Source: an uncultured Lentisphaeraceae bacterium
GTDB taxonomy: Bacteria; Verrucomicrobiota; Kiritimatiellia; RFP12; UBA1067
Reading direction: 5' to 3'
Assembly (NCBI GenBank): GCA_964613265.1
Contig: CAZTHR010000002.1
Location: 1 to 26,955 of the forward strand
DNA: 26,955 nt
Below, piece after piece: positions 1-15,201 of this stretch. The notes under the pieces were generated by a model. The model was not told where the DNA came from. It searched no databases and saw nothing but the letters and a program-made list of their open reading frames with translations. Each line of letters starts with the position of its first letter. Position 1 is the stretch's first letter. A program made the translations under genes and the position numbers.

Positions 1-37
1 TCAACTGCGGATTTTTCCTGCGGAATCGATTTCGCGC

Positions 38-64
38 TTGCAAATAAAAAAAAATGGGTATAAT
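38..64 (+). promoter_or_regulatory. sigma70-like promoter, TTGCAA-N15-TATAAT, with an A9 tract in the spacer
   Basis: TTGCAA at 38-43, perfect TATAAT at 59-64, A run at 46-54. It lies upstream of the SD-like GAAAGGTGG (95-103) and ATG 111. Confidence 0.7.
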
Positions 65-110
65 CGCTTCATCAACTGTTGAAAGCGTTTTTATGAAAGG
101 TGGTAGATCG

Positions 111-3100
111 ATGTTCATGCGGAAAACGATGAGTCTGTTCGGCGGGCTGGCGTTCGCCCTTGCGGCGGCGGGCGCGACGCGGACGTACACGTCCGCGCAG
201 ACGGTGTCCGACGAGCTGACGGGCAACGACGACGTGGTGGTGGATTGCGGCGCGGGCCAGTTCGTCACGTTCACGGGCGCGAACACGTTCACAGGTGGCG
301 TGACGGTCAAGTCCGGCGGTGTGATTGTCTCGAACGCCACCGCTCTCGGTACGGGGCAGATCAAATGCGCCAGTGGTACGGCCGTCCGCGTGTGCGTGAG
401 TTATCGCGGCACGGCGCAGACGCTCAACGAGGCCGTCATCGACCGCATTGAAGTCGGCAAGGCGGCGGACGGCGCGGACGAACCGTACGTCGCGTTCCAG
501 CTGACGGGTGACGGATTGGCGAACGACGTGGATTTCAGCCAGCAGCCATATCTGTGGTTGAGTGCGCCGGTCGCCAACGCGATTGCCTATCTGAACGGAC
601 ACTTCGAACCGTATGACAATGTCTACAAGTTCGGCTATTCGGGCGAGGCCGCCTGGTATGTGCGCGGCATCGTTGTGACGAACCTGACGGACGCGGCGGA
701 CGGCACGTCCCGTCGCGTGCTGCTGCGCGGCACGGGCACGACTTCGTTTGATTCCGGCGCGTCGTTCACGGGTGGCGTCCTCGTCGAGGGGCCGGCTCGC
801 ATCGCGCTCTGGAACGGCAGCGCCCTCGGCACGGGCGTGACGAACCGTCCGAACGACTTTCTCACGTTGCGGAACGGCGCCGGGTTGAACGTCAAAAACA
901 ACAGCCTCTCCTTGCCCGACACGCTGGGGCTTCGCTTCGAGGGAACGAACGACCTCCATTCGTGCGGTGCGACCAGAACCGTCTATACGACGGTGAAAGG
1001 CCCTGTGTCCGGCTGGGGCGAAATTCGTTTCACCGACCAGGGCGGCGTCTGGTTCACGAGTGCTAGTAACTCGTTCTCAGGCGCGTTGCGCGTAACCAAC
1101 GGACACCCCACATACGACGTCGAGATTCGTATCGGCGACGGCGCGAACTGCAGTTGGGCGGGAAGCGAGATCATCCAGCACGCCGATCGCCACAATCAGG
1201 TGTTTTCGATTAACTGTGATTCGGACTTCACGCTGAACACCGCGCTTTCGGCGACGGGCGGGCGCGTCACCAAGTTTGGACGCGGCACGTTGACGTTCGC
1301 GCAGCCGTTTAACCGCCAGCCGTTCGCCGCCGCGCCCGATCGGTCGGTCTTGCGGATTGCCGGCGGCACGGTGAAACTCGACCATCCGTGGAACGTGGTG
1401 CGCGAAGGGGCGATCGAGCTGGAGAACGGCGGGACGCTCGATCTGAACGGCACGGCGTCGACGCGCCTCCCGCTGCCGTACGGGAACGGCGCCGTCGTCG
1501 GCTTCCCCGACGGGGGCGTGACGTTCACGGGCACGACGTGGACGGACGCATCGTTCAACGGGCGTCTGGCGGGGGACGTGACGGTGGACATCGCGAGCGG
1601 AGCGGGCTGGCGGCTCGGTCCCGACACGGACGTCGAGGGGACGCTGAGTGTCGCCGTCGGACGCGTGGAACTTGCGGAGGGCGTGCATATCGCGGGCGAC
1701 TACGTGTCGAGCGCCACTGCGCGGACGTCCTTCCTCGGACGCGACGACGCGCAAATGACCGGATTGGGGCTGTCGGTCTGGTACAATATTTCGTGGGCGG
1801 ATCAGATGGACACGATGATGCAGAACGCCATCGACCATACCGCGACCACGTCGCCCAACTTCATCGGCGACATGGCGAAGTTCACGGAGGGATTCAAGAG
1901 CGGCACGAACGACAGCGCGGGCGGCAACAAGGGACCGTTGGTCGATACCATCGGCGGCTCAAAGGACAATTTTTTGGCGAAGTTCTACGGATCGTTCATT
2001 GCCGAGACGAACGGGACGTATGCGTTCCGCCTCCGCGCCGACGACGCGGCCAAGCTGATCATGGACGGAACGAACGTGGTGGTGAGCGTTGCGGCTGGTT
2101 CGGCCTCCACGACGCAGTCGGGGACGGTCGAGCTGACGGCGGGCCACCACCCGCTGACGGTCTGGTTCTGCGAGAGGATCGGTTGGGAAATCATCTGGGT
2201 TGAGATGAAGGCGCCGGGCGAGACGGAATGGTCGATTGTGCCGTTGCGCGTGCTGTCCGCCTGGAACGGACGCCATACGGAACTGCAGCGTGTGACGGGC
2301 GCGGGGACGCTGGAACTCGGTTCTGCGACGGCCGCGTGGCCGTCGGCGATGGATCTTACGGATTTCTCGGGCAGCCTTTTGGCGAACGCGCATTCGGCCG
2401 CGCCGTCAGCCGGGCGGGTCGTGCCGGCGGCCACATCGATTTCCTTCCTCAATCCGAACGGCCTGTTCGGCTCGAACTGGACGATGAAGGGGCAGGCGAC
2501 GGCGGTGTTCGATGCATCCGGCGCGGTGGTGGACCTTCTGCCGAGCGCGCGCACGAACGCCTACGGGTCGTTGAACACAGCCGCGCCGCTCGACCTGTCC
2601 AAACCGTTCACGTTCGCGTTCGACTATTCCATTCACGAACCGTGGGGTGCGCTGGGCGACGGGTTCTGTCTCGTCCTCCACGACGGGACGAAGGGGTATG
2701 CGAACGGCACGTTCAACTACACAGAGACGGGAAACCGCGTCAACGAACCGAGCGCCTACGGGATGCAGTTCTACCTGATGCCGAGGGACTCGATTTTCTC
2801 CTGGGTCAAGGATTGCAAGGGGCTGGGTGCGCCCGTGACGAACACGGTCTTTACCATGGAAAACATCCTGCGGACGCCTCTGCACGTGGAATGCGCGTGG
2901 GACTTGGAGAACCTAGTCGTCCGTCTGGAGATGGGAACGTCCACCTGGGTCTCGACGAATGCGCTTGCGGCGGCCGACCTGGCGGAGAAATTTCCCTCTG
3001 GCGCCCATCTGGGCGTATGGGGGCAGTGCGGCGGCTACTACACGGGAATGCGGCTTGACAACATCCGTCTCGACGTGTCGGGCGCCGTGTCCGGCGACAT

Positions 3101-3539
3101 GCCCGTCTGCACGTTCAACGGCGTGTTGGGCGTGACGAACGGCGTGTCGGACGTCCGCGTGGACGCGGGCGTGGCGGCGGAACTGGCGGCGGAACTGGAC
3201 GTCGTGGGCGTGGGCGGTCTTGCCGTGGTAGACGGATCTTCGGTGGCGTTGACGTCGCCTGTCTGGACGTTCGATCTGGCGAACCCCGCGTCCTGCCTGT
3301 CGCTGGCCGGTGCGTTTACGTTCCCGAACGCGGCGGAACGGCCGATCGTCGTCGAACTGCGCGGCGAACCGACACCGCGGACACGGATTCTTGCCGACTT
3401 GACGGGCCTCGCCGCCGACGCGGCCGCTGTGCCGGCATTCCGGTTGGGCGAAGGTTATCCCAGCTCCTACCGTCTCGTTTACGAGAACGGTTTTTTGCGC
3501 ATTTCCAATGCCGTCGGAACACTTTTGATCTTCCGCTGA
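111..3539 (+). CDS. large secreted adhesin/lectin-like protein: signal peptide, autotransporter-associated passenger (PATR-like) repeats, PA14 domain, L-type (legume/ConA-like) lectin domain, C-terminal GTLLIFR; no autotransporter barrel
   Basis: Start moved from 54 to ATG 111 because ATG 54 lies inside the promoter and an SD sits at 95-103. Signal peptide MFMRKTMSLFGGLAFALAAAGA. PATR-like FTGANTFTGGVTVKSG and KFGRGTLTF. PA14-like DNFLAKFYGSFIAETNGTYAFRLRADDAAKLIMDG...VELTAGHHPLTVWFCE (about 1760-2250). Lectin-like WTMKGQA...GSLNTAAPLDLSKPFTFAFDY...GDGFCLVLHD (about 2450-3080). Confidence 0.85.
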   Translation: MFMRKTMSLFGGLAFALAAAGATRTYTSAQTVSDELTGNDDVVVDCGAGQFVTFTGANTFTGGVTVKSGGVIVSNATALGTGQIKCASGTAVRVCVSYRGTAQTLNEAVIDRIEVGKAADGADEPYVAFQLTGDGLANDVDFSQQPYLWLSAPVANAIAYLNGHFEPYDNVYKFGYSGEAAWYVRGIVVTNLTDAADGTSRRVLLRGTGTTSFDSGASFTGGVLVEGPARIALWNGSALGTGVTNRPNDFLTLRNGAGLNVKNNSLSLPDTLGLRFEGTNDLHSCGATRTVYTTVKGPVSGWGEIRFTDQGGVWFTSASNSFSGALRVTNGHPTYDVEIRIGDGANCSWAGSEIIQHADRHNQVFSINCDSDFTLNTALSATGGRVTKFGRGTLTFAQPFNRQPFAAAPDRSVLRIAGGTVKLDHPWNVVREGAIELENGGTLDLNGTASTRLPLPYGNGAVVGFPDGGVTFTGTTWTDASFNGRLAGDVTVDIASGAGWRLGPDTDVEGTLSVAVGRVELAEGVHIAGDYVSSATARTSFLGRDDAQMTGLGLSVWYNISWADQMDTMMQNAIDHTATTSPNFIGDMAKFTEGFKSGTNDSAGGNKGPLVDTIGGSKDNFLAKFYGSFIAETNGTYAFRLRADDAAKLIMDGTNVVVSVAAGSASTTQSGTVELTAGHHPLTVWFCERIGWEIIWVEMKAPGETEWSIVPLRVLSAWNGRHTELQRVTGAGTLELGSATAAWPSAMDLTDFSGSLLANAHSAAPSAGRVVPAATSISFLNPNGLFGSNWTMKGQATAVFDASGAVVDLLPSARTNAYGSLNTAAPLDLSKPFTFAFDYSIHEPWGALGDGFCLVLHDGTKGYANGTFNYTETGNRVNEPSAYGMQFYLMPRDSIFSWVKDCKGLGAPVTNTVFTMENILRTPLHVECAWDLENLVVRLEMGTSTWVSTNALAAADLAEKFPSGAHLGVWGQCGGYYTGMRLDNIRLDVSGAVSGDMPVCTFNGVLGVTNGVSDVRVDAGVAAELAAELDVVGVGGLAVVDGSSVALTSPVWTFDLANPASCLSLAGAFTFPNAAERPIVVELRGEPTPRTRILADLTGLAADAAAVPAFRLGEGYPSSYRLVYENGFLRISNAVGTLLIFR

Positions 3540-3615
3540 TGTGCAGTCGTCCCATGTGTCGATGCGCGTGGACGTTAAGTTCGGCGGGGAGCTGCTGTAT
3601 TCGTACTCCGTCCGA

Positions 3616-3709
3616 TGTCCATCCTTTTTCTCACAGTGTCCAGTATTTGGCAAACGGGGTGGGGCGGACACCCCGTCGATTTTTGAGAATGTCCGTTATT
3701 ATGGCAAAC
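3616..3709 (+). promoter_or_regulatory. candidate regulator binding sites (TGTCC and TGTCC-N6/7-TGGCAAAC repeats) upstream of the second secreted-protein promoter
   Basis: TGTCC at 3616, 3637 (21 bp apart) and 3690, inverted copy GGACA at 3666. TGGCAAAC at 3648-3655 and 3702-3709. Confidence 0.35.
3654..3684 (+). terminator. possible weak intrinsic terminator downstream of the first secreted-protein gene
   Basis: 8-bp stem ACGGGGTG (3654-3661)/CACCCCGT (3669-3676), 7-nt loop, T5 at 3680-3684 offset by 3 nt. Confidence 0.35.
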
Positions 3710-3727
3710 TCGGTCTTGGCGAAGGGC

Positions 3728-3758
3728 TTGACGTGGAGAAAAAAAAAAATGCTATATT
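3728..3758 (+). promoter_or_regulatory. sigma70-like promoter, TTGACG-N19-TATATT (TGn extended -10), with an A11 tract in the spacer
   Basis: TTGACG 3728-3733, A run 3739-3749, TGC-TATATT 3750-3758. SD-like GAAAGGTGG at 3780-3788, identical to the one before the first gene. Confidence 0.7.
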
Positions 3759-3792
3759 GCCACCAAAATGACCCAACTAGAAAGGTGGCAAT

Positions 3793-6700
3793 ATGGCGAA
3801 CAAGCGGATATGTAGGTGGTGGCCGGCCCGTGCGGCCTGGTGCGCAGCGTTGTGCGGCGCGGCGTTGTGCGTCGTCAGGGCGGACGGCATTCCCGACGCG
3901 CCGTATGTGGACACGTGGACGAACAATGCGTCGGGAGCCGTCTCTTGGGAGGGGCACGGTTCATACTGGGCGTCCGGCACGGTTCCCGAAATCACCAACT
4001 CGATTCCCTACTCGACCAATCTGACGGTCTTCATCGACCATCAGCCGGAAGCTCCTAGCAATCTGCAGATCATCCAGGGTCCGTGGTCGAAGGAGTCCGG
4101 CGGCAATAACATTGCTTGGGCGTTGAACGCGCTTGTCGGCGGGCCGATGACGGCGTTTGAATTCTATTACGCCAGCTACTGTCGACCGTTGTTGATTCGC
4201 GATCCCTCGCGCTATCAGGGCGTTTGGCAGATTCGCGACGCCCACCAGTCTGGCGCATCGTCCGTCATGCAGCTTCTGTCTGACGCGACGTGGACGTCCA
4301 CGGTCAACCGCGTCAATCTTTCCGGCCGCATGGGTTTCCGTGTGCCGTCCGGTACGACGGCCGCGTTGGAGCATCCTTTTGGCGAGGGGGTCTTCGAGGT
4401 CAATCGCACGTATGGTGACCGTCCTTTCGTCAGGACGCCGACGGACGGCACGTTGGCGATTCTCAACTCGCCCGGCGGCGAGTCGTATCTGCGCGTCCGC
4501 AACGGGTTCGTTTCGCTCCACGGTCGCCTTGGCGGCGATTCTCCCGCCCTCGTCCCTGGCGCGGCTCTGCGTCTCGACGCCTCCGCCGCCGAGACGTTCA
4601 CGACCGACGTGGCGGACGGTCGGACGTTCGTGACGGACTGGCGCGACGCCGACGGCCGTGCGATTTCCGCCAAGTCCGTGGATTCGCTGGGGCGTCCCTC
4701 CCTCGCGACGGATGCCGCGACGGGAAAGCCTGTCATCGATTTCGGCAAGTACGGCGACAATACGCAGTTTGACGACCCGGTTCTCGGCCGGACGGCCTCG
4801 CTGAAACTCGATGTCCGGCTTGATGGCGTTCGCGAGCTTTTCGTCGTCTTCCGCGACAAGGAGGGTGGTACGACCCATCCGCAGTTCGTCGGCTGCTCGC
4901 TGAGAGAGGCCGATCGCATGTTCCTGCGCACGGGCAACGGTGAACTCTTCAACAACGAACATGTCTGCCAGATGCCGCTCCGTGCAGGTGAGATCCGCGT
5001 GAACGACCGTGCCGAACCGGCCAATGCGCCGGACGACTACACGCGCCGTCTGACCGTCGTTTCCGCCGGATTGAACACGAACTTCACACATGCCGTCGCG
5101 CCCGTCCAGTGGATCGCCGGCGCGGAGGAAACCGCACGTAACGGTGGCATCCAAATTGCCGAGCTCGTCCTTTACACGAACACGCTCACGACAGCCCAAC
5201 GGCGGCAGAACAACGCGGCGCTGATGCGCAAATGGCTTCCAGCGGCGGAGGCGGTACCGTGGGACTACGGCGCCGTGTGGTTCGACCAGAAAGACCCCGT
5301 GCTGGACGTGGCGGCGGGAACGGTGGCCGTGCGCGAACTGATGCTCGCCGACGGCACGCGGAAAATCGTGAAGACGGGCGCTGGTACGCTCGTGCTTAAG
5401 CGCATGACGCCCAACCGGTCCGACGTGCGCATTGAAGTCCGGGCGGGCAACGTGTGTTTCGTGGACGACGTGGAGAAGGCCGCCGACCCGCGTCCGGCCG
5501 CCGATCCGTTCTGCTGGTTCGACGCGACGGCGAAAGCGTCGTTCGTGATGGATGCGGCGGGAACGGGCATCGCCCAGTGGCGCGACCGGCGCGACGGTAC
5601 GAACCACTACGGACAGGTGCTCGCGCTGGCGCGGCCGAACGTGGAGAGTCCGCTGACGAATTCGGCCAAGACGCATCTCGCCTATCCGACGTTCGACGCG
5701 ACGGTGGCGGACGGGCGGGGCATGGTCGATCTGGGCGCGTTTTTGTCGAACACCAAAAACGTTTCGGATACAGGTGACACGTCAAGCCTCCGCCTCTACA
5801 AGGACGGCGTGATACAGGGCGTCGGCAACACGGACATGCGCGAAGGATATCTTGTCTACTACAAGAAGGTCGACGACGCGCAGTTCATCGGTTCGGACAA
5901 CTACATGGTCTTCCAGCTGACGGGCGACACGGGCTCGAAAGGCCTCATCGTCAAGGAACTCTACTGCCATACGCGGACGATCGGCGGATACTGGCGGTAT
6001 GACGGAAAGGTCGTTGACCCGTGCGCCTGTCCGAACACCGCGCAGGAAGTCCACATTCTTTCGTTCCGTCTCGCCCACAAGCTCGGCATCAATGCGTTTG
6101 CATCGGATCGCGGCAGTGCGCAGTGGCAGCTGGGCGGACTCAAGCTCGGCGAGGTGCTCTACTACGACCGTCTGCTGACCGATCAGGAGCGGCGCGACAC
6201 GGAAGCCTATCTCTTCCGCAAGTGGAAGGGGACGCCGCCTCCGCAGGACGAACACGCACCCTGCGCCGCGTCGCTTTGGCTGGCGCCGCAGACGGACGAT
6301 CCGGCGCTGGACAGCGTGGCGTCCGAGACACGCTATGCGGGTGTCGAGGGCGTGCTGGACGGCGTCCTCTCCTACACGGGCGCGGGGACGACCGTCTTCA
6401 CGAACGCGGCCACGTCGCGCGTACGGGCGATTGAGATGCGTGGCGGCGGTTCGCTCGATGTGACGATGGACTTTGACATTTGCTCCAACGCCTGGTTCCA
6501 TCTAGACGCCACCCGCGCCGACACGGTGGACTATTTCGCCGCGAACTCGAATGCCGTCGACGTCTGGCGCGACGTCCGCGCCGCCGATGTCTCCGCGTCG
6601 GCGATCCTCAAGGGGCGCAGGGCGCGTCCGTTCCGCTGCGAGACGGACGTCAATGGAACAGACCGGCGGATGCCGGTGATCGACTTCGGAGACTGGTACA

Positions 6701-7611
6701 ACGGCAACGGACCGACGAACGCCGCCGCCTCCATGGAGTGGAGCGCGCGGACGGCGCTGCGGGAGTTCTACATTGTCCAGCGCGACAAGGGACTGCACCG
6801 GCCGGATGCGGAGGGCGGCGCGGAAATCAAGGGCTATCCGTGCCTGTTCGGACAGCTTAAGCAAAACACGAAGGACGACGGCGACTACTACAAGGCGGAT
6901 TCGGACCAGATTGCGTTCTACCGCAATACCAAGAGCCTTCTTACGGAATGGGCGACGCCGCGTGTGTATCACGGTTACATCGGCGTGAACGGCGAGACGA
7001 AGTACGGGGAGTTCGTGCCGGCTACGAACACGTTCTACGTCTACAGTTTCCAGCCGACGGGCGCCGTCCACCATGTACAGACGTTTGCGCGGCGCGACAG
7101 CTATCAGGTCGGCGGGCAGCAGATTGGCGAGATGGTCTGCTTTGCGCAGACGAACACGGTGGAACGGCGGACGGAGATCGAGAACTATCTGATGCGCAAG
7201 TGGTTCGGCCCGACGGCGGGCGCGGCCGCGACGTGGCGGATGGACGCCGTGACGTTCCACGACGCGGCGGAACTGACGGTGCGTGTGCCGGCGTGGCAGA
7301 AACTCGCCGTCGGGTCGTTCGCATTCGTCTTCGACGGCACGTCCGTCGGACATTTCACCGTGGACGGTACGTTCGTGCTGCCAGAGACGGGGACGTGGAC
7401 GGTCGATCTTGCCGCCGATCGCGAACGGGTGGCGTACGGCGTCTATCCGCTCCTGACGGCGACGAACGCGGAAGGGCTGAACAACCTTGACAACTGGACG
7501 AAGACGTTCACGCGGAGCGGCACAGCGAACGTCGCGGCCCGTCTGCGGAAGACGGCGACTGGCGTGTCGCTCGTCGTCTCGCCCGCCGGTACGCTGCTGA
7601 TTCTTCGATAG
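3793..7611 (+). CDS. large secreted protein with three LamG/ConA-like jelly-roll repeats separated by passenger-like beta segments, C-terminal GTLLILR; no autotransporter barrel
   Basis: Signal peptide MANKRICRWWPARAAWCAALCGAALCVVRA. Three copies of the pattern [LF]DA...WRD...P[VM][IV]D[FL]G...GG.[QK][IL][AG]E...[ML]RKW. PATR-like KIVKTGAGTLVL between repeats 1 and 2. Confidence 0.85.
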   Translation: MANKRICRWWPARAAWCAALCGAALCVVRADGIPDAPYVDTWTNNASGAVSWEGHGSYWASGTVPEITNSIPYSTNLTVFIDHQPEAPSNLQIIQGPWSKESGGNNIAWALNALVGGPMTAFEFYYASYCRPLLIRDPSRYQGVWQIRDAHQSGASSVMQLLSDATWTSTVNRVNLSGRMGFRVPSGTTAALEHPFGEGVFEVNRTYGDRPFVRTPTDGTLAILNSPGGESYLRVRNGFVSLHGRLGGDSPALVPGAALRLDASAAETFTTDVADGRTFVTDWRDADGRAISAKSVDSLGRPSLATDAATGKPVIDFGKYGDNTQFDDPVLGRTASLKLDVRLDGVRELFVVFRDKEGGTTHPQFVGCSLREADRMFLRTGNGELFNNEHVCQMPLRAGEIRVNDRAEPANAPDDYTRRLTVVSAGLNTNFTHAVAPVQWIAGAEETARNGGIQIAELVLYTNTLTTAQRRQNNAALMRKWLPAAEAVPWDYGAVWFDQKDPVLDVAAGTVAVRELMLADGTRKIVKTGAGTLVLKRMTPNRSDVRIEVRAGNVCFVDDVEKAADPRPAADPFCWFDATAKASFVMDAAGTGIAQWRDRRDGTNHYGQVLALARPNVESPLTNSAKTHLAYPTFDATVADGRGMVDLGAFLSNTKNVSDTGDTSSLRLYKDGVIQGVGNTDMREGYLVYYKKVDDAQFIGSDNYMVFQLTGDTGSKGLIVKELYCHTRTIGGYWRYDGKVVDPCACPNTAQEVHILSFRLAHKLGINAFASDRGSAQWQLGGLKLGEVLYYDRLLTDQERRDTEAYLFRKWKGTPPPQDEHAPCAASLWLAPQTDDPALDSVASETRYAGVEGVLDGVLSYTGAGTTVFTNAATSRVRAIEMRGGGSLDVTMDFDICSNAWFHLDATRADTVDYFAANSNAVDVWRDVRAADVSASAILKGRRARPFRCETDVNGTDRRMPVIDFGDWYNGNGPTNAAASMEWSARTALREFYIVQRDKGLHRPDAEGGAEIKGYPCLFGQLKQNTKDDGDYYKADSDQIAFYRNTKSLLTEWATPRVYHGYIGVNGETKYGEFVPATNTFYVYSFQPTGAVHHVQTFARRDSYQVGGQQIGEMVCFAQTNTVERRTEIENYLMRKWFGPTAGAAATWRMDAVTFHDAAELTVRVPAWQKLAVGSFAFVFDGTSVGHFTVDGTFVLPETGTWTVDLAADRERVAYGVYPLLTATNAEGLNNLDNWTKTFTRSGTANVAARLRKTATGVSLVVSPAGTLLILR
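4543..7203 (+). repeat. three diverged internal protein-domain repeats (about 4543-5235, 5488-6225, 6481-7203)
   Basis: The repeats end in AALMRKW, AYLFRKW and NYLMRKW and begin with LRLDAS, CWFDAT and FHLDAT. Similarity is visible at the protein level only. Confidence 0.75.
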
Positions 7612-7631
7612 GCCGTATGGGCAAGCCTCCG

Positions 7632-7673
7632 TGCGGAACTAAATGCGTTGAATTGGATGCATTTAGTTCCGCA
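7632..7673. repeat. perfect 15-bp inverted repeat with a 12-nt spacer
   Basis: TGCGGAACTAAATGC (7632-7646) / GCATTTAGTTCCGCA (7659-7673). No U-tract on either side. Confidence 0.9.
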
Positions 7674-7715
7674 AACGACAGGGAAAATTATTTTCGCATT
7701 CACGGAAATTACGGC

Positions 7716-7744
7716 TTGCCGACGGGGACGGGTTTTGATATACT
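7716..7744 (+). promoter_or_regulatory. tRNA promoter, TTGCCG-N17-TATACT with extended -10; AT-rich palindrome GAAAAT-T-ATTTTC (7683-7695) upstream, UP-element-like
   Basis: TTGCCG 7716-7721, TG 7736-7737, TATACT 7739-7744. Canonical 17-nt spacing, 17 nt before the tRNA 5' end. Confidence 0.75.
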
Positions 7745-7761
7745 ACTCCCCGTTTTCAGAT

Positions 7762-7838
7762 GGCGAGAGTAGCTCAATTGGTAGAGCATCAGATTGTGGA
7801 TCTGAGGGTTGCGGGATCGTGCCCCGTCTCTTGCCCCA
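7762..7838 (+). tRNA. tRNA-His (anticodon GTG) with encoded G-1, C73 and CCA
   Basis: Folded by hand: acceptor GCGAGAG/CTCTTGC, D arm GCTC/GAGC, anticodon arm TCAGA-TTGTGGA-TCTGA, T arm GCGGG-ATCGTGC-CCCGT, CCA at 7836-7838. Confidence 0.95.
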
Positions 7839-7844
7839 AATTCT

Positions 7845-7872
7845 CCGTCCGGGGCTTAGCCGGGCGGTTTTT
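7845..7872 (+). terminator. intrinsic terminator after tRNA-His
   Basis: Stem CCGTCCGG/CCGGGCGG (8 bp, one G-U), 7-nt loop, followed by TTTTTCCTTTC. Confidence 0.65.
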
Positions 7873-7892
7873 CCTTTCAAAGGAGTCGTGGC

Positions 7893-9428
7893 ATGACGGA
7901 CAAGGCGCTGCTTGAACAGTATCTGCGCAGGATTCTCAACTCGAACGTCTACGATGTGGCGATTGAAAGTCCGTTGGAGGAGGCGGTCGCGTTGTCCGCC
8001 AAACGGGGGAACACGTTTCTGCTCAAGCGCGAAGATCTGCAGTGTGTGCATTCGTTCAAACTGCGCGGCGCCTACAACAAGATGTCGCGTCTGTCCGTCG
8101 ACGCGCTCCAGAAGGGCGTTTTGGCGGCGTCGGCGGGCAATCATGCGCAGGGTGTGGCGCTGAGCGCGCGCAAGCTTGGTTGCAAGGCCACCATCGTCAT
8201 GCCAGTGACGACGCCGGAAATCAAGATTGCGTCCGTCAAGAGCCTTGGCGCGTCCATCGTTCTCGCGGGCGATTCCTATTCCGACGCGGCGGCGGAGGCG
8301 GCGCGTCTCGTGAAGGAACAGGCGTTTACGTTCATTCCGCCGTACGATGATCCGGATGTCATTGCCGGGCAGGGGACGGTGGCGATGGAGATTCTGCGCC
8401 AGCGGCCGGGGAAACTGGACGCCGTCTTCGTCCCCGTCGGCGGCGGCGGATTTGCGGCCGGTGTGGCCGTCTACATCAAGGCCGTTCGTCCGTCTGTCAA
8501 AGTCTACGGTGTCGAACCGGTCGATTCGGATTGCATGGATCGCTCGATCAAGGCGGGCCGGCGCGTTGAACTTTCCGAAGTTGGGCTTTTTGCCGACGGC
8601 GTGGCTGTGAAGAAGCCGGGCAAGATCACGTACGACCTTTGTCGACGCTTTTTGGACGGCATCGTCCGTGTGACGACGGACGAAACGTGTGCGGCGATCA
8701 AGGACATTTTCGAGGCGACACGTGCCATTTGCGAACCGGCCGGCGCGCTGGCGCTCGCGGCCGCCAAACAGCACGCCGCGAAGAAGGGGGCGCAGGGCGA
8801 AACGTACGCCTGCATCATCTCCGGCGCGAACATGAACTTCGACCGCATACGTTTTGTCTGCGAACAGACGGAGATCGGTGAACGGCGCGAGGCCATCTTG
8901 GAGTGCCGTATCCCCGAAGAACGTGGCGCGTTCAAGGCGTTCATCCGCCATCTCGGCAAACGCAACGTGACGGAATTCAACTACCGCTATTTCGATCCCG
9001 ACAAGGCCTACGTGTTCGTAGGGTTGTCCGTGGCCGATCGCTCGGAGACGCGGCAGATCATTCAGCAGTTGGCGAATGCGCGGATTGGAACGATTGACTT
9101 GTCCGAGGACGCGCTCGCCAAGGAGCACATTCGCCACATGGTGGGCGGCCACACGCGCGGCATCCACGACGAAGTGGTCTACACATTCGAGTTCCCGGAG
9201 CGGCCGGGCGCGTTGGCGGACTTTTTGGAGGCCATCTCGAATTCCTGGAACATTACCCTCTTCCACTACCGCAACCACGGCGCCGACCATGGAAAGGTTC
9301 TTGTCGGACTTCAGGTGCCGAAGAAGGAACGGGCGGCATTCACGCGAACGCTGCGTGCGCTCGGCTACGTGTTCAAGGAGGTTTCGTCCAACCCGGCGTA
9401 TCGCCTTTTCCTTGGCAACCGCGACTAA
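7893..9428 (+). CDS. ilvA: threonine ammonia-lyase, biosynthetic (long form with two C-terminal regulatory ACT-like domains)
   Basis: LKREDLQCVHSFKLRGAYNKM (PLP lysine), ASAGNHAQGVA, GQGTVAMEIL, VPVGGGG, ISGANMNFDR, IPEERGAF and FEFPERPGAL...FHYRNHGAD regulatory repeats. SD AAGGAG upstream. Confidence 0.97.
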   Translation: MTDKALLEQYLRRILNSNVYDVAIESPLEEAVALSAKRGNTFLLKREDLQCVHSFKLRGAYNKMSRLSVDALQKGVLAASAGNHAQGVALSARKLGCKATIVMPVTTPEIKIASVKSLGASIVLAGDSYSDAAAEAARLVKEQAFTFIPPYDDPDVIAGQGTVAMEILRQRPGKLDAVFVPVGGGGFAAGVAVYIKAVRPSVKVYGVEPVDSDCMDRSIKAGRRVELSEVGLFADGVAVKKPGKITYDLCRRFLDGIVRVTTDETCAAIKDIFEATRAICEPAGALALAAAKQHAAKKGAQGETYACIISGANMNFDRIRFVCEQTEIGERREAILECRIPEERGAFKAFIRHLGKRNVTEFNYRYFDPDKAYVFVGLSVADRSETRQIIQQLANARIGTIDLSEDALAKEHIRHMVGGHTRGIHDEVVYTFEFPERPGALADFLEAISNSWNITLFHYRNHGADHGKVLVGLQVPKKERAAFTRTLRALGYVFKEVSSNPAYRLFLGNRD

Positions 9429-11236: not shown

Positions 11237-11265
11237 ATTTTAGCATGGTAAGCCCTCTTTTGCAA
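11237..11265 (-). promoter_or_regulatory. sigma70-like promoter for the membrane hypothetical/NYN genes, TTGCAA-N17-TAAAAT with TGn
   Basis: Minus strand reads TTGCAA aagagggcttaccatgc TAAAAT. Confidence 0.7.
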
Positions 11266-13590: not shown

Positions 13591-15201
13591 ATGAGACGGT
13601 TTCTTTCATCTCCGCGCGGGGGGCTGTTCCTCGCGACGGTCGTGCTTTTGTTGTTCGGGTTCGCCGGCATGTTCCAGCGGATCATGCAACTCTTTGCCGC
13701 GCCGGACGAGGATTTGTCGTATGGGTGGTTCGTGCCCGTCTTTTCGCTTTTTGTGCTGTGGACGCGGCGGCGTGAGTTGGTGGCGGCCGCGACGGCGGGT
13801 GCGCCCTCGTGGGGCGGTTTGGCGGCGTGTCTGCCGTGTCTCGTTCTCGCGGTTCTGGGAACGCGCGGCCTGCAGGTCCGCTTCGAGCAGCTTGGGTTCA
13901 TCGGCCTTTGCATCACCGTGCCGTGGGCGTTCTTCGGACGTGCCGTGGCGAAGATCTGCGTCTTCCCCGCGCTCTACCTGCTCTTCACGATTCCGCTCGC
14001 GACCTTCCTCGACGTGGTGACGATCCATTTGCGTCTCCTTGCCTGTTCAACGGCGCTTGCGGTGCTGAACGGTATCGGCGTGGAAGTCGTGCAGCAGGGG
14101 ACGGCGATCCTCTCTCAGGGGGCGCATCCGTTTTCAATCGACGTGGCGGAGCCGTGTTCGGGGCTGCGTTCGCTTTTTGCGCTCATGGCGTTGACGGCGG
14201 CCTACGCCTGGTTCACGCAATCGGGCTTTCTGCGTCGTGCGTTGCTCTTCGCCTGTTCGATTCCGCTGGCCGTCTTGGGGAACGTCATGCGCATTGTGAC
14301 AATCTGCCTCGTGGCGGCGGGGGCGGATCCCGATTTCGCAACGGGGTTCTACCACGACTATTCGGGCTACATCGTCTTTCTCGTCGCCATCCTCTGCATG
14401 GTGGGCTGTGGCGAGTTGATCGGGCGAATGCCCGTACGGGCGCACCGGACGGACGCGCCGGACGTATCTCCGGTTCGTCCATCGACAGGTCGTCGCGGAA
14501 TCGTCGTGCCTCTTGCGGCGTCTCTGGTGTTGGGTTCGCTGGCGCTCTTTCAGGCCACGACGCCCAAATCCACCCTCGCCGAAGCGCCGGCCATTTCGCT
14601 GCCGCGCAACGTGCCGGGGCATGTGGACGACGGTTTGCGTTTCTGCCACAACGAGACGTGTCTCCAGTGCGTGACCCTCGCCGAGTTGAACGGCGCGACG
14701 GCGTGTCCGACGTGCGGCGGTGACCTTTTCCACGTGTCGCTGGGCGAGAAGACGTTGCTGCCGGCGGATACAAAGCTCGAAAAGCGCACGTATCGGAATG
14801 CGCACGGCCAGCATTTCCTCGTCAGCGTCGTCATCGGCGGCGCGAGCAAGAGTTCCATCCACCGCCCCGAACTCTGTTTGCCGACTCAGGGTTTCCTCAT
14901 GGCCGACCCCGCGAACTTCGCGGTGGACGGCATTCCGTTCCACGCCATTCATCTGGCGAACAAGCAGATGCCGACGTCCATGCTGGCCTATACGTTCTTC
15001 AACCAGGCGGGGATGCGGACGGCTTCGCACACGCGGCGCATTTTGCAGGACGTTCTGGACCGATCGTTCCTGAACCGCATCGACCGCTGGGTGATGGTGT
15101 CTGTCCAGGCCTCCTCCGCAGCGGGGTTTTCGCTCGATCGGGCGGCGGATCGACAGGCGCTTGAGGCGTTCCTCTCGCAGATGATGAAAGGGTTGCGGTG
15201 A
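13591..15201 (+). CDS. exosortase (EpsH family) fused to an EpsI-like domain containing a Cys-rich insertion
   Basis: Multi-TM N-terminal half with DEDLSYGWFVP, catalytic triad motifs VAEPCSGLRSL (Cys), GNVMRI (Arg) and FYHDYSG (His). EpsI-like KRTYRN...VSVVIGG...SIHRPELCLPTQGF. Confidence 0.9.
   Translation: MRRFLSSPRGGLFLATVVLLLFGFAGMFQRIMQLFAAPDEDLSYGWFVPVFSLFVLWTRRRELVAAATAGAPSWGGLAACLPCLVLAVLGTRGLQVRFEQLGFIGLCITVPWAFFGRAVAKICVFPALYLLFTIPLATFLDVVTIHLRLLACSTALAVLNGIGVEVVQQGTAILSQGAHPFSIDVAEPCSGLRSLFALMALTAAYAWFTQSGFLRRALLFACSIPLAVLGNVMRIVTICLVAAGADPDFATGFYHDYSGYIVFLVAILCMVGCGELIGRMPVRAHRTDAPDVSPVRPSTGRRGIVVPLAASLVLGSLALFQATTPKSTLAEAPAISLPRNVPGHVDDGLRFCHNETCLQCVTLAELNGATACPTCGGDLFHVSLGEKTLLPADTKLEKRTYRNAHGQHFLVSVVIGGASKSSIHRPELCLPTQGFLMADPANFAVDGIPFHAIHLANKQMPTSMLAYTFFNQAGMRTASHTRRILQDVLDRSFLNRIDRWVMVSVQASSAAGFSLDRAADRQALEAFLSQMMKGLR

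What the first reader, a model, noticed from the sequence alone, without database searches (positions are those of the whole stretch)
38..3758. Poly-A tracts inside the -35/-10 spacers of both surface-protein promoters, with off-optimal spacing (15 and 19 nt)
Seen: promoter 1 is TTGCAA-N15(A9)-TATAAT and promoter 2 is TTGACG-N19(A11)-TATATT. These are the longest homopolymers I found by eye in a GC-rich window. The two full -35/-10 promoters without A-runs (7716-7744 and 11237-11265) have the canonical 17-nt spacer. Gaining 2 A in promoter 1 or losing 2 A in promoter 2 would give 17. Established: homopolymer tracts in promoter spacers drive phase variation of surface proteins (Neisseria porA, Mycoplasma vlp). 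Inference: independent slipped-strand ON/OFF tuning of two adhesins. Caveat: promoter 2 has a TGn extended -10 and may not need its -35.
Basis: partly seen in the sequence, partly recalled or inferred. Interest (0 to 1): 0.62.

Follow-up and report, generated by a model that had tools for sequence, protein, structure and literature searches.

The report
Hypervariable poly-A promoter switches, gut Lentisphaeraceae
Both large secreted-protein genes at the start of this window have a run of 9-11 A's between the two promoter boxes, and that run is the one site that changes between otherwise identical strains, so it is a classical slippage-type expression switch, found here in an uncultured animal-gut Lentisphaeraceae bacterium that carries dozens of them.

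Summary
P1 is TTGCAA(38-43)-N15 with A9(46-54)-TATAAT(59-64). P2 is TTGACG(3728-3733)-N19 with A11(3739-3749)-TGC-TATATT(3753-3758). These are the longest homopolymers in the window; the next longest is 6.

- Contigs from other animal-gut metagenomes are identical over 4.3-4.8 kb and differ only at these tracts. P1 occurs as A9, A10 and A11. P2 occurs as A9, A10 and A11, and as A10-A12 in the sister species.
- The two tracts belong to a genome-wide class. A/T homopolymer lengths are bimodal, with 35 tracts of 9 or more against about 6 expected.
- About 25 tracts share the layout -35, 0-6 nt, A8-11, 3-5 nt, TATAAT.
- Nearly all of these precede 800-1500 aa signal-peptide proteins that end in GT + four hydrophobic residues + R/K. 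A few precede defence genes (brxA, an RtcR-like gene).
- Tract-free promoters in the same genome peak at 17-18 nt spacers. Tract promoters sit mostly at 15-16 or 18-19.

No effect on transcription was measured, and heterogeneity within a single population was not tested because no raw reads were available.

The closest analogue is the Mycoplasma hyorhinis vlp poly-A system. I found no paper reporting this in Lentisphaerae. This scan noted the same kind of switch earlier on another genome (e1-5109233). I class it as a new member of a known kind.

The parts
38..43 (+). P1 -35 hexamer TTGCAA
   Evidence: Sequence. The same hexamer and position are conserved in the sister-species ortholog.
46..54 (+). 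P1 spacer poly-A tract, A9 here (spacer 15). A10 and A11 occur in other samples.
   Evidence: A11 in X1, A10 in X3 and X9, A9 in X4. L095 (A10) against L096 and L097 (A9), and L091 (A9) against L092 (A10), have the tract as their only difference in 4.3-4.8 kb.
59..64 (+). P1 -10 hexamer TATAAT
   Evidence: Sequence.
111..3539 (+). Gene 1: 1142-aa secreted protein (signal peptide, weak PATR repeat, PA14, lectin-like region) ending GTLLIFR. SD at 96-103.
   Evidence: Ortholog in G007 is 88-89% identical.
3654..3686 (+). Terminator-like hairpin plus T run after gene 1, which separates the two transcription units
   Evidence: Other samples carry +G at 3660 and +C at 3670, which lengthen the stem by one pair.
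3728..3733 (+). P2 -35 hexamer TTGACG
   Evidence: Sequence. Identical in the sister-species ortholog L070.
3739..3749 (+). P2 spacer poly-A tract, A11 here (spacer 19). A9 and A10 occur in the same species, A10-A12 in the sister species.
   Evidence: A10 in X1 and X9, A11 in X3 and X4. L101 A11, L102 and L104 A9, L103 A11. L102 and L103 differ only by 2 A in 4302 nt. Eight sister-species contigs are identical over 4619 nt except for A10, A11 or A12.
3750..3758 (+). P2 extended -10, TGC-TATATT
   Evidence: Sequence. The T at 3750 is G in three runs (L102-L104), which removes the TG.
3793..7611 (+). Gene 2: 1272-aa secreted protein with no Pfam or NCBIfam hit, ending GTLLILR. SD at 3780-3788.
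   Evidence: Ortholog in G007 is about 92% identical over the first 500 residues.

Best explanation
The two poly-A runs are hypermutable simple-sequence repeats inside the -35/-10 spacers of two independent sigma-70-type promoters. Each promoter drives one large secreted protein. Slipped-strand mispairing during replication adds or removes single A's, which changes the spacer length: 15, 16 or 17 nt seen at P1, and 17, 18 or 19 nt at P2. This moves the -35 and -10 boxes in or out of the 17-18 nt register that this organism's tract-free promoters use. The expected result is heritable, reversible and independent variation in transcription of each gene, either on/off or graded.

The window holds two members of a lineage-wide set of such switches. 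There are about 25 in this 2.2-Mb MAG, and at least 37 and 11 in two sister species. They head a paralogous family of proteins with a GT-hydrophobic4-R/K C-terminus, plus some phage-defence operons, which gives combinatorial surface variation.

Shown here: tract position, hypervariability on identical backgrounds, the genome-wide class, the gene association and the off-optimal spacing. Inferred: the slippage mechanism, the effect on transcription and reversibility.
For: 1. Architecture is confirmed.
2. Hypervariability at P1: Logan contigs of four runs from three studies give A9, A10, A10 and A11. Contigs encoding identical proteins differ only by one A over 4829, 4335 and 4338 nt.
3. Hypervariability at P2: A9 and A11 occur on a 4302-nt background with no other difference. 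In the sister species, 8 contigs from 8 runs are identical over 4619 nt except for A10 x3, A11 x4 and A12 x1.
4. The same variation appears in MEGAHIT contigs (ERZ27271039 A9, ERZ27271042 A10), so it is not specific to one assembler.
5. Run-length distribution is bimodal, with 35 A/T runs of 9 or more against about 6 expected.
6. There is a shared layout across about 25 sites.
7. All 9 tailed-family genes with a visible upstream region have a tract. In G007 and G044, 37 of 39 complete downstream ORFs of 600 aa or more carry the tail.
8. Tract-free promoters in this genome peak at 17 nt (28) and 18 nt (19). The 60 tract promoters distribute as 15:19, 16:9, 17:3, 18:13, 19:16.
9. Other tract promoters head brxA and an RtcR-like CARF-AAA gene, which are typical contingency-gene classes.
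10. Orthologous promoters in G000 and G007 keep their flanks but differ in tract length: A11/A10 and A11/A9.
11. 20 of 40 A/T tracts of 8 or more lie within 60 nt of a contig end, against 1.7% expected. This fits assembly-graph branching at the tracts.
Against: - No expression data were available, so the link between tract length and transcription rests on analogy and on the spacer preference of tract-free promoters.
- All variation was seen between consensus contigs of different samples. Heterogeneity within one population was not tested because only contigs were available, not raw reads.
- Several runs come from the same studies and may not be independent hosts.
- MutS and MutL are present, so there is no general mutator background.
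- Tract lengths cluster tightly at 9-10, and flank sums are nearly always 6 or 9. This could also reflect a structural requirement rather than selection for switching.
Confidence: 0.8

Rival explanations
1. The A tract is a fixed architectural promoter element of this lineage, for example an intrinsically rigid or bent spacer, or a binding site for a regulator shared by the secreted-protein family. On this view the length polymorphism is a neutral by-product of homopolymer instability with little effect on expression.
For: Tract length is narrowly distributed, mostly 9-10. The distance from tract to -10 is constant at 3-5 nt, with a conserved T(G)G after the tract. Gene 1 has A9 in both species. 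P2 has an extended -10 that could work without a correctly spaced -35.
Against: Near-consensus TTGACA boxes are conserved at positions giving spacers of 15-16 or 18-19 nt, whereas tract-free promoters in the same genome use 17-18. A regulator site or bend would not need an uninterrupted homopolymer, yet no interrupted tracts were seen in the family promoters of G000, G007 or G044. Homologous genes in other species of the genus carry poly-G in the spacer instead (G001) or, in G034, a poly-C run lying upstream of the -35 rather than in the spacer. That points to selection for repeat instability rather than for A-tract structure. The downstream gene classes are those of contingency loci.
Confidence: 0.14
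2. The length differences are homopolymer sequencing or assembly errors, and the true tracts are invariant.
For: Homopolymers are error-prone, all evidence comes from short-read assemblies, and several contigs end at or inside the tracts.
Against: The same discrete alleles recur in independent runs and with three assembly methods: the k=55 graph of the MAG, Logan k=31 contigs and MEGAHIT k141. Contig depths are 13-37x. In up to 4.8 kb of otherwise identical sequence no other indel appears. A9-A12 runs are far shorter than the k-mers used. The excess of A9-11 runs sits specifically in promoters.
Confidence: 0.03
3. The tracts are parts of terminators or of the divergent upstream gene's regulatory region, and are not spacers of the promoters for genes 1 and 2.
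For: About 5-6 other A/T runs of 9 or more in the genome flank GC-rich hairpins and look like bidirectional terminators (C3, C5, C9, C175). P1 lies about 70 nt upstream of a divergent U32 peptidase gene.
Against: Neither window tract is adjacent to a hairpin. Gene 1 has its own terminator at 3654-3686, upstream of P2. Both tracts sit exactly between good -35 and -10 boxes that face a gene with an SD 30-45 nt downstream. That arrangement repeats at 60 loci in the species examined (G000, G007, G044 and one locus of G014) whatever the upstream neighbour.
Confidence: 0.03

Closest known systems
Mycoplasma hyorhinis vlp genes (poly-A tract in each vlp promoter; Citti & Wise 1995, as summarised in PMC10502178)
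   Same: A homopolymeric A tract lies in the promoter of every member of a multigene family of surface proteins. Each gene is its own transcription unit. Insertions and deletions in the tract switch genes independently, giving combinatorial surface variation.
   Different: There is no homology of genes or proteins. The host here is a GC-rich (62%), diderm, MutS/MutL-encoding PVC-group gut bacterium rather than an AT-rich mollicute. The family is much larger: at least 29 tailed ORFs here and at least 37 tract promoters in a sister species, against a handful of vlp genes (the vlp number is from my own knowledge). Tracts are 9-12 A rather than about 17. Switching of expression has not been demonstrated here.
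Neisseria meningitidis porA (poly-G) and opc (poly-C) promoter-spacer tracts
   Same: A homopolymer between -35 and -10 sets the spacer length, and therefore graded or on/off transcription of an outer-membrane protein. The organism is mismatch-repair proficient.
   Different: Those are G/C tracts at single loci in a pathogen. Here they are A tracts (G or C tracts in some congeners) used at dozens of promoters in a commensal.
Contingency loci / simple-sequence-repeat phase variation in general (Moxon et al.; review PMC11868660)
   Same: Localised hypermutation at repeats in genes for surface structures and for restriction or defence systems. This genome also has an A10 run inside a signal-peptide coding region and G12-14 runs near other genes.
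   Different: I found no report for Lentisphaerae or Kiritimatiellae in the paper library.
Invertible promoters of Bacteroides (functional analogue in gut commensals; established knowledge)
   Same: Stochastic on/off control of many surface-structure loci in a gut commensal.
   Different: The mechanism there is site-specific inversion by recombinases, not repeat slippage.

Membership tests
Promoter-spacer homopolymer phase variation (vlp / porA type) | An uninterrupted homopolymer lies between the -35 and -10 hexamers of the promoter of the regulated gene | tested here: met
   Both tracts lie between hexamers matching at least 4/6 and 5/6, which face a gene with an SD. The same layout is seen at 60 loci.
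Promoter-spacer homopolymer phase variation (vlp / porA type) | Tract length mutates far faster than the surrounding sequence (different lengths on otherwise identical backgrounds) | tested here: met
   The tract is the sole difference in 4.3-4.8 kb in several contig pairs. There are three alleles at each window tract.
Promoter-spacer homopolymer phase variation (vlp / porA type) | Length heterogeneity within a clonal population, and reversibility | not testable with these tools
   Only consensus contigs were available. The indirect hints are contig breaks at tracts and a Logan contig that ends inside tract 2 (L092).
Promoter-spacer homopolymer phase variation (vlp / porA type) | Tract length determines the transcription level (on/off or graded) | not testable with these tools
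   No RNA data were laid. The inference rests on the 17-18 nt optimum of tract-free promoters against 15-16 and 18-19 at tract promoters.
Contingency loci (Moxon) | The regulated genes encode surface-exposed or secreted proteins, or defence and restriction functions | tested here: met
   Signal peptides and a shared C-terminal tail, PA14 and lectin-like domains, brxA and an RtcR-like gene. Actual surface exposure is inferred.
Mycoplasma vlp family (homology) | Sequence homology of the proteins or promoters to vlp | tested here: not met
   Pfam and NCBIfam give only PA14, lectin-like and PATR hits, or nothing. The relation is analogy only.

The most novel reading that the evidence does not exclude
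Gut Lentisphaeraceae run a genome-wide poly-A promoter-switch system that diversifies a family of 30-40 or more secreted proteins sharing an undescribed C-terminal GT-hydrophobic4-R/K signal, together with phage-defence operons. Its promoters fall into two classes that bracket the optimal spacer from below (flank sum 6, spacer 15-16) and from above (flank sum 9, spacer 18-19). Expansion would therefore switch on one class and contraction the other. This would be a built-in push-pull organisation not described for other contingency systems.
Probability: 0.2. Interest if true: 0.7.

Novelty: new member of a known kind. Interest (0 to 1): 0.5.

Why it matters
Slippage-driven promoter switches are known mostly from pathogens such as Neisseria, Haemophilus, Bordetella and mycoplasmas. 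This finding shows the same device at large scale, with dozens of promoters per genome, in an uncultured GC-rich PVC-group commensal of animal guts, and with direct evidence of hypervariability between near-clonal strains.

It marks out which genes this organism treats as contingency genes: a large uncharacterised family of tailed secreted proteins, BREX and other defence loci. It also explains why MAGs of this lineage fragment at these genes. Tract lengths could serve as simple markers for population-level surface variation in metagenomes.

Tried and rejected
- Exact-protein look-ups of P0002, P0001 and an alternative start of gene 1 found nothing. I reached other assemblies only through cluster members.
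- The genome-contig scan with P0002 returned one locus, the G007 ortholog. It gave the taxon name but no wider comparison.
- I tried to read tract heterogeneity from the k=55 contig overlaps. C178/C117 share exactly A9 plus 46 nt, as expected for the vertex where length variants converge. The C192/C2 and C120/C252 overlaps do not fit that simple picture. I therefore use only the enrichment of tracts at contig ends as a hint.
- An Rfam scan of 1-8000 found only a tRNA, so no known RNA element explains the leaders.
- Loss of mismatch repair as the cause of instability is rejected, because MutS and MutL are present.
- A terminator reading of the two window tracts is rejected (and context).
- The literature searches found no prior report for this phylum. 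One search failed on syntax.
Full report
**Observation**

The window is the whole of contig C2 of a 2.21-Mb, 320-contig MAG (62% GC). Reading 1-420 and 3480-4020 confirms both promoters exactly as described.
- P1 is TTGCAA (38-43), a 15-nt spacer with A9 at 46-54, and TATAAT (59-64).
- P2 is TTGACG (3728-3733), a 19-nt spacer with A11 at 3739-3749, then TGC and TATATT (3753-3758).

No other homopolymer in the window is longer than 6. Gene 1 most plausibly starts at ATG 111, behind the SD AAAGGTGG at 96-103, and encodes 1142 aa ending GTLLIFR. Gene 2 runs 3793-7611, has the same SD, and encodes 1272 aa ending GTLLILR. A hairpin plus T run at 3654-3686 separates the two units. One of them drives a tRNA at 7763-7835.

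**More than chance**

Across the genome, A/T run lengths are bimodal. Counts for lengths 7, 8, 9, 10, 11 and 12 are 76, 5, 20, 12, 2 and 1. Log-linear extrapolation from lengths 3-7 predicts about 6 runs of 9 or more, and 35 are observed. About 0.07 are expected in this window and 2 are observed.

Printing all contexts shows that about 25 of these runs share one layout: TTGACN or TTGCAA, 0-6 nt, A8-11, T(G)NN, TATAAT. About 5-6 others flank hairpins and look like terminators. One A10 run lies inside a signal-peptide coding region. There are also six G/C runs of 12-14.

**What the tracts control**

A scan of all long ORFs found 29 family-like ORFs (31 matches, two of them clearly unrelated) that end in four hydrophobic residues plus R/K, usually preceded by GT. 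Many are cut by contig ends. All 9 with a readable upstream region have an A8-11 tract promoter.

Gene 1 carries PA14, a weak L-type-lectin-like stretch and a weak PATR repeat. Gene 2 has no Pfam or NCBIfam hit. Other tract promoters in this genome head brxA, the first gene of a BREX defence system, with A10 and spacer 19, and an RtcR-like CARF-AAA regulator. These are the gene classes typical of contingency loci.

**Taxon and distribution**

- The gene 1 ortholog lies in a MAG titled uncultured Lentisphaeraceae bacterium. The runs that hold the window are animal gut or faeces metagenomes.
- The motif A9-T-N2-5-TATAAT occurs 13 times in this genome, 35 times in sister species G007, 11 times in G044 and 0-3 times in 30 other species of the genus. 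Reversed controls give 0.
- Across the order, TTGAC-N1-7-A9 is frequent only in some genera of this one family (counts there are inflated by overlapping matches).
- In 40 loci fetched from G007 and G044, almost every tract precedes an 800-1500 aa signal-peptide protein with the same C-terminal tail. Of 39 complete downstream ORFs of 600 aa or more, 37 carry the tail.
- More distant homologs of gene 1 carry a poly-G10 in the spacer (G001), a poly-A10 in the spacer (G014) or, in G034, a poly-C15 just upstream of the promoter. In G035 the orthologous spacer is an interrupted G run.

**Spacing**

Tract-free promoter matches in this genome peak sharply at 17 nt (28) and 18 nt (19), against 2-7 at other lengths and 0-4 in reversed controls. 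The 60 tract promoters collected from G000, G007, G044 and G014 distribute as 15:19, 16:9, 17:3, 18:13 and 19:16.

The contrast is strong (Fisher p about 1e-9), but paralogous promoters are not independent. The non-tract part of the spacer is almost always 6 or 9 nt. With the usual A9-10 this puts the promoters just below or just above the optimum. I have no tested explanation for this dichotomy. It would follow if the majority allele at most loci is the off state.

**Hypervariability: the decisive evidence**

Logan contigs of four runs from three studies were laid on 1-4200.
- Tract 1 is A11 in X1, A10 in X3 and X9, and A9 in X4.
- Tract 2 is A10 in X1 and X9, and A11 in X3 and X4.

Cluster members of the two proteins led to contigs that encode identical proteins.
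- P1: L095 (A10) against L096 (A9) differ by that one A in 4829 nt. L095 against L097 is the same over 4335 nt. L091 (A9) against L092 (A10) is the same over 4338 nt.
- In the sister species, two MEGAHIT contigs differ at the tract (A10 against A9) plus 7 substitutions upstream.
- P2 in the window's species: A11-TGC (L101), A9-GGC (L102, L104) and A11-GGC (L103). L102 and L103 differ only by two A's in 4302 nt.
- P2 ortholog in the sister species: eight contigs from eight runs are identical over 4619 nt except for A10 (3), A11 (4) and A12 (1).

The spacers seen in nature are therefore 15, 16 and 17 nt at P1 and 17, 18 and 19 nt at P2, plus 20 in the sister species. The combinations across samples (9/11, 9/9, 10/11, 10/10, 11/10) show that the two tracts vary independently. 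The most frequent alleles, A9 at P1 and A11 at P2, are the ones furthest from 17-18.

**Supporting hints**

Half of all A/T tracts of 8 or more (20 of 40) lie within 60 nt of a contig end, against 1.7% expected, and 10 lie at the very end. Contigs overlap by 55 nt, as in a k=55 graph. This fits branching of the assembly graph at length-variable tracts, but it is not proof. MutS and MutL are present, so instability is local and not due to a mutator background, as in Neisseria.

**Mechanism and rivals**

The best reading is classical transcriptional phase or rheostat variation by slipped-strand mispairing in a promoter spacer (confidence about 0.8). Shown are the tract position, the hypervariability, the class and the gene association. 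Inferred are the effect on transcription and its reversibility.

The main rival is a fixed A-tract promoter element with neutral length drift (0.14). Several points weigh against it:
- conserved near-consensus -35 boxes sit at off-optimal distances;
- no interrupted tracts are seen in the family promoters examined;
- congeners use G tracts at or C tracts near homologous promoters;
- the downstream gene classes are those of contingency loci.

Artefact (0.03) is made unlikely by recurrence of discrete alleles across runs and assemblers on otherwise indel-free kilobases. A terminator or divergent-gene reading (0.03) does not fit the anatomy.

**Comparison and novelty**

The system works like the M. 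hyorhinis vlp system, which has a poly-A tract in each promoter of a surface-protein family (PMC10502178 citing Citti & Wise 1995), and like Neisseria porA and opc. It is not homologous to them.

I found no paper connecting Lentisphaerae or Kiritimatiellae with repeat-mediated phase variation. This scan itself recorded the same kind of poly-A switch earlier in another Kiritimatiellia/Lentisphaerae-like genome (e1-5109233). I class the finding as a new member of a known kind, notable for its scale and for the quality of the natural-variation evidence. Interest is 0.5.

Noticed in passing
window 3516-3539 and 7588-7611; G000 contigs listed: The C-terminal GT + four hydrophobic residues + R/K tail is shared by 29 long ORFs in this genome. 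In sister species it is carried by 37 of 39 proteins that lie behind tract promoters. This is a large family with a possible undescribed sorting signal. An exosortase gene lies at 13591-15201, but the tails are not PEP-CTERM.
   Followed up: partly
window 3545-3716: The gene 1 / gene 2 intergenic region is structurally variable between samples. There is a 193-nt insertion at 3626/3627 in three runs. Contigs break at 3716 with different upstream sequence. In SRR19576302, SRR19576309 and SRR19576305, gene 1 is followed by genes of 90, 116 and 880 aa instead of directly by P2.
   Followed up: partly
window 3660 and 3670: A compensatory pair of insertions (+G and +C) in all four laid runs lengthens the terminator stem after gene 1 by one base pair.
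   Followed up: no
window 3750: The T immediately after tract 2 is G in three runs (L102-L104). This removes the TG of the extended -10. In two of them it coincides with A9, which gives spacer 17.
   Followed up: no
G000:C119:320-350 (L082): A promoter with A10 in a 19-nt spacer heads brxA, the first gene of a BREX phage-defence system. This is a candidate phase-variable defence locus.
   Followed up: partly
G000:C31:13637-13650 (L086): A G14/C14 run lies about 90 nt upstream of a cas1 gene. Other G/C runs of 12-13 lie at C12, C33 (apparently inside a coding region), C35 and C42.
   Followed up: no
G000:C216:2881-2890 (L084): An A10 run lies inside the coding sequence of a signal peptide (MKLKKKIGL...) of a PATR-repeat protein of more than 960 aa. 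This is a candidate frameshift-type switch rather than a promoter switch.
   Followed up: no
G000:C86:1-100 (L089): There are two and a bit tandem copies of a 38-nt unit. Each copy contains an A9-10 run and a TTGCA(A/G) box, upstream of a TATAAT and a gene of more than 790 aa.
   Followed up: no
G000:C42:3300-5110 (L080): Two tandem, apparently identical jukA-like defence genes are present. One has A7 and the other A9 directly upstream of the ribosome-binding site. An RtcR-like gene behind an A9 promoter, and a G13/C13 run, lie nearby. The promoter motif A9-TAGATATAAT found at the RtcR-like gene in this genome also occurs in five other species of the genus; which genes it precedes there was not checked.
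   Followed up: partly
whole genome G000: A/T runs of exactly 8 are depleted (5 observed, about 20 expected) while runs of 9-10 are enriched. Spacer flank sums are almost always 6 or 9, never 7, and rarely 8. Both remain unexplained.
   Followed up: partly
L057 (G001) and L058 (G035), upstream of gene 1 homologs: A widespread congener has poly-G10 in the promoter spacer of the homologous gene. One of its protein clusters has 997 member sequences. This would be a rich data set for tract-length statistics.
   Followed up: no
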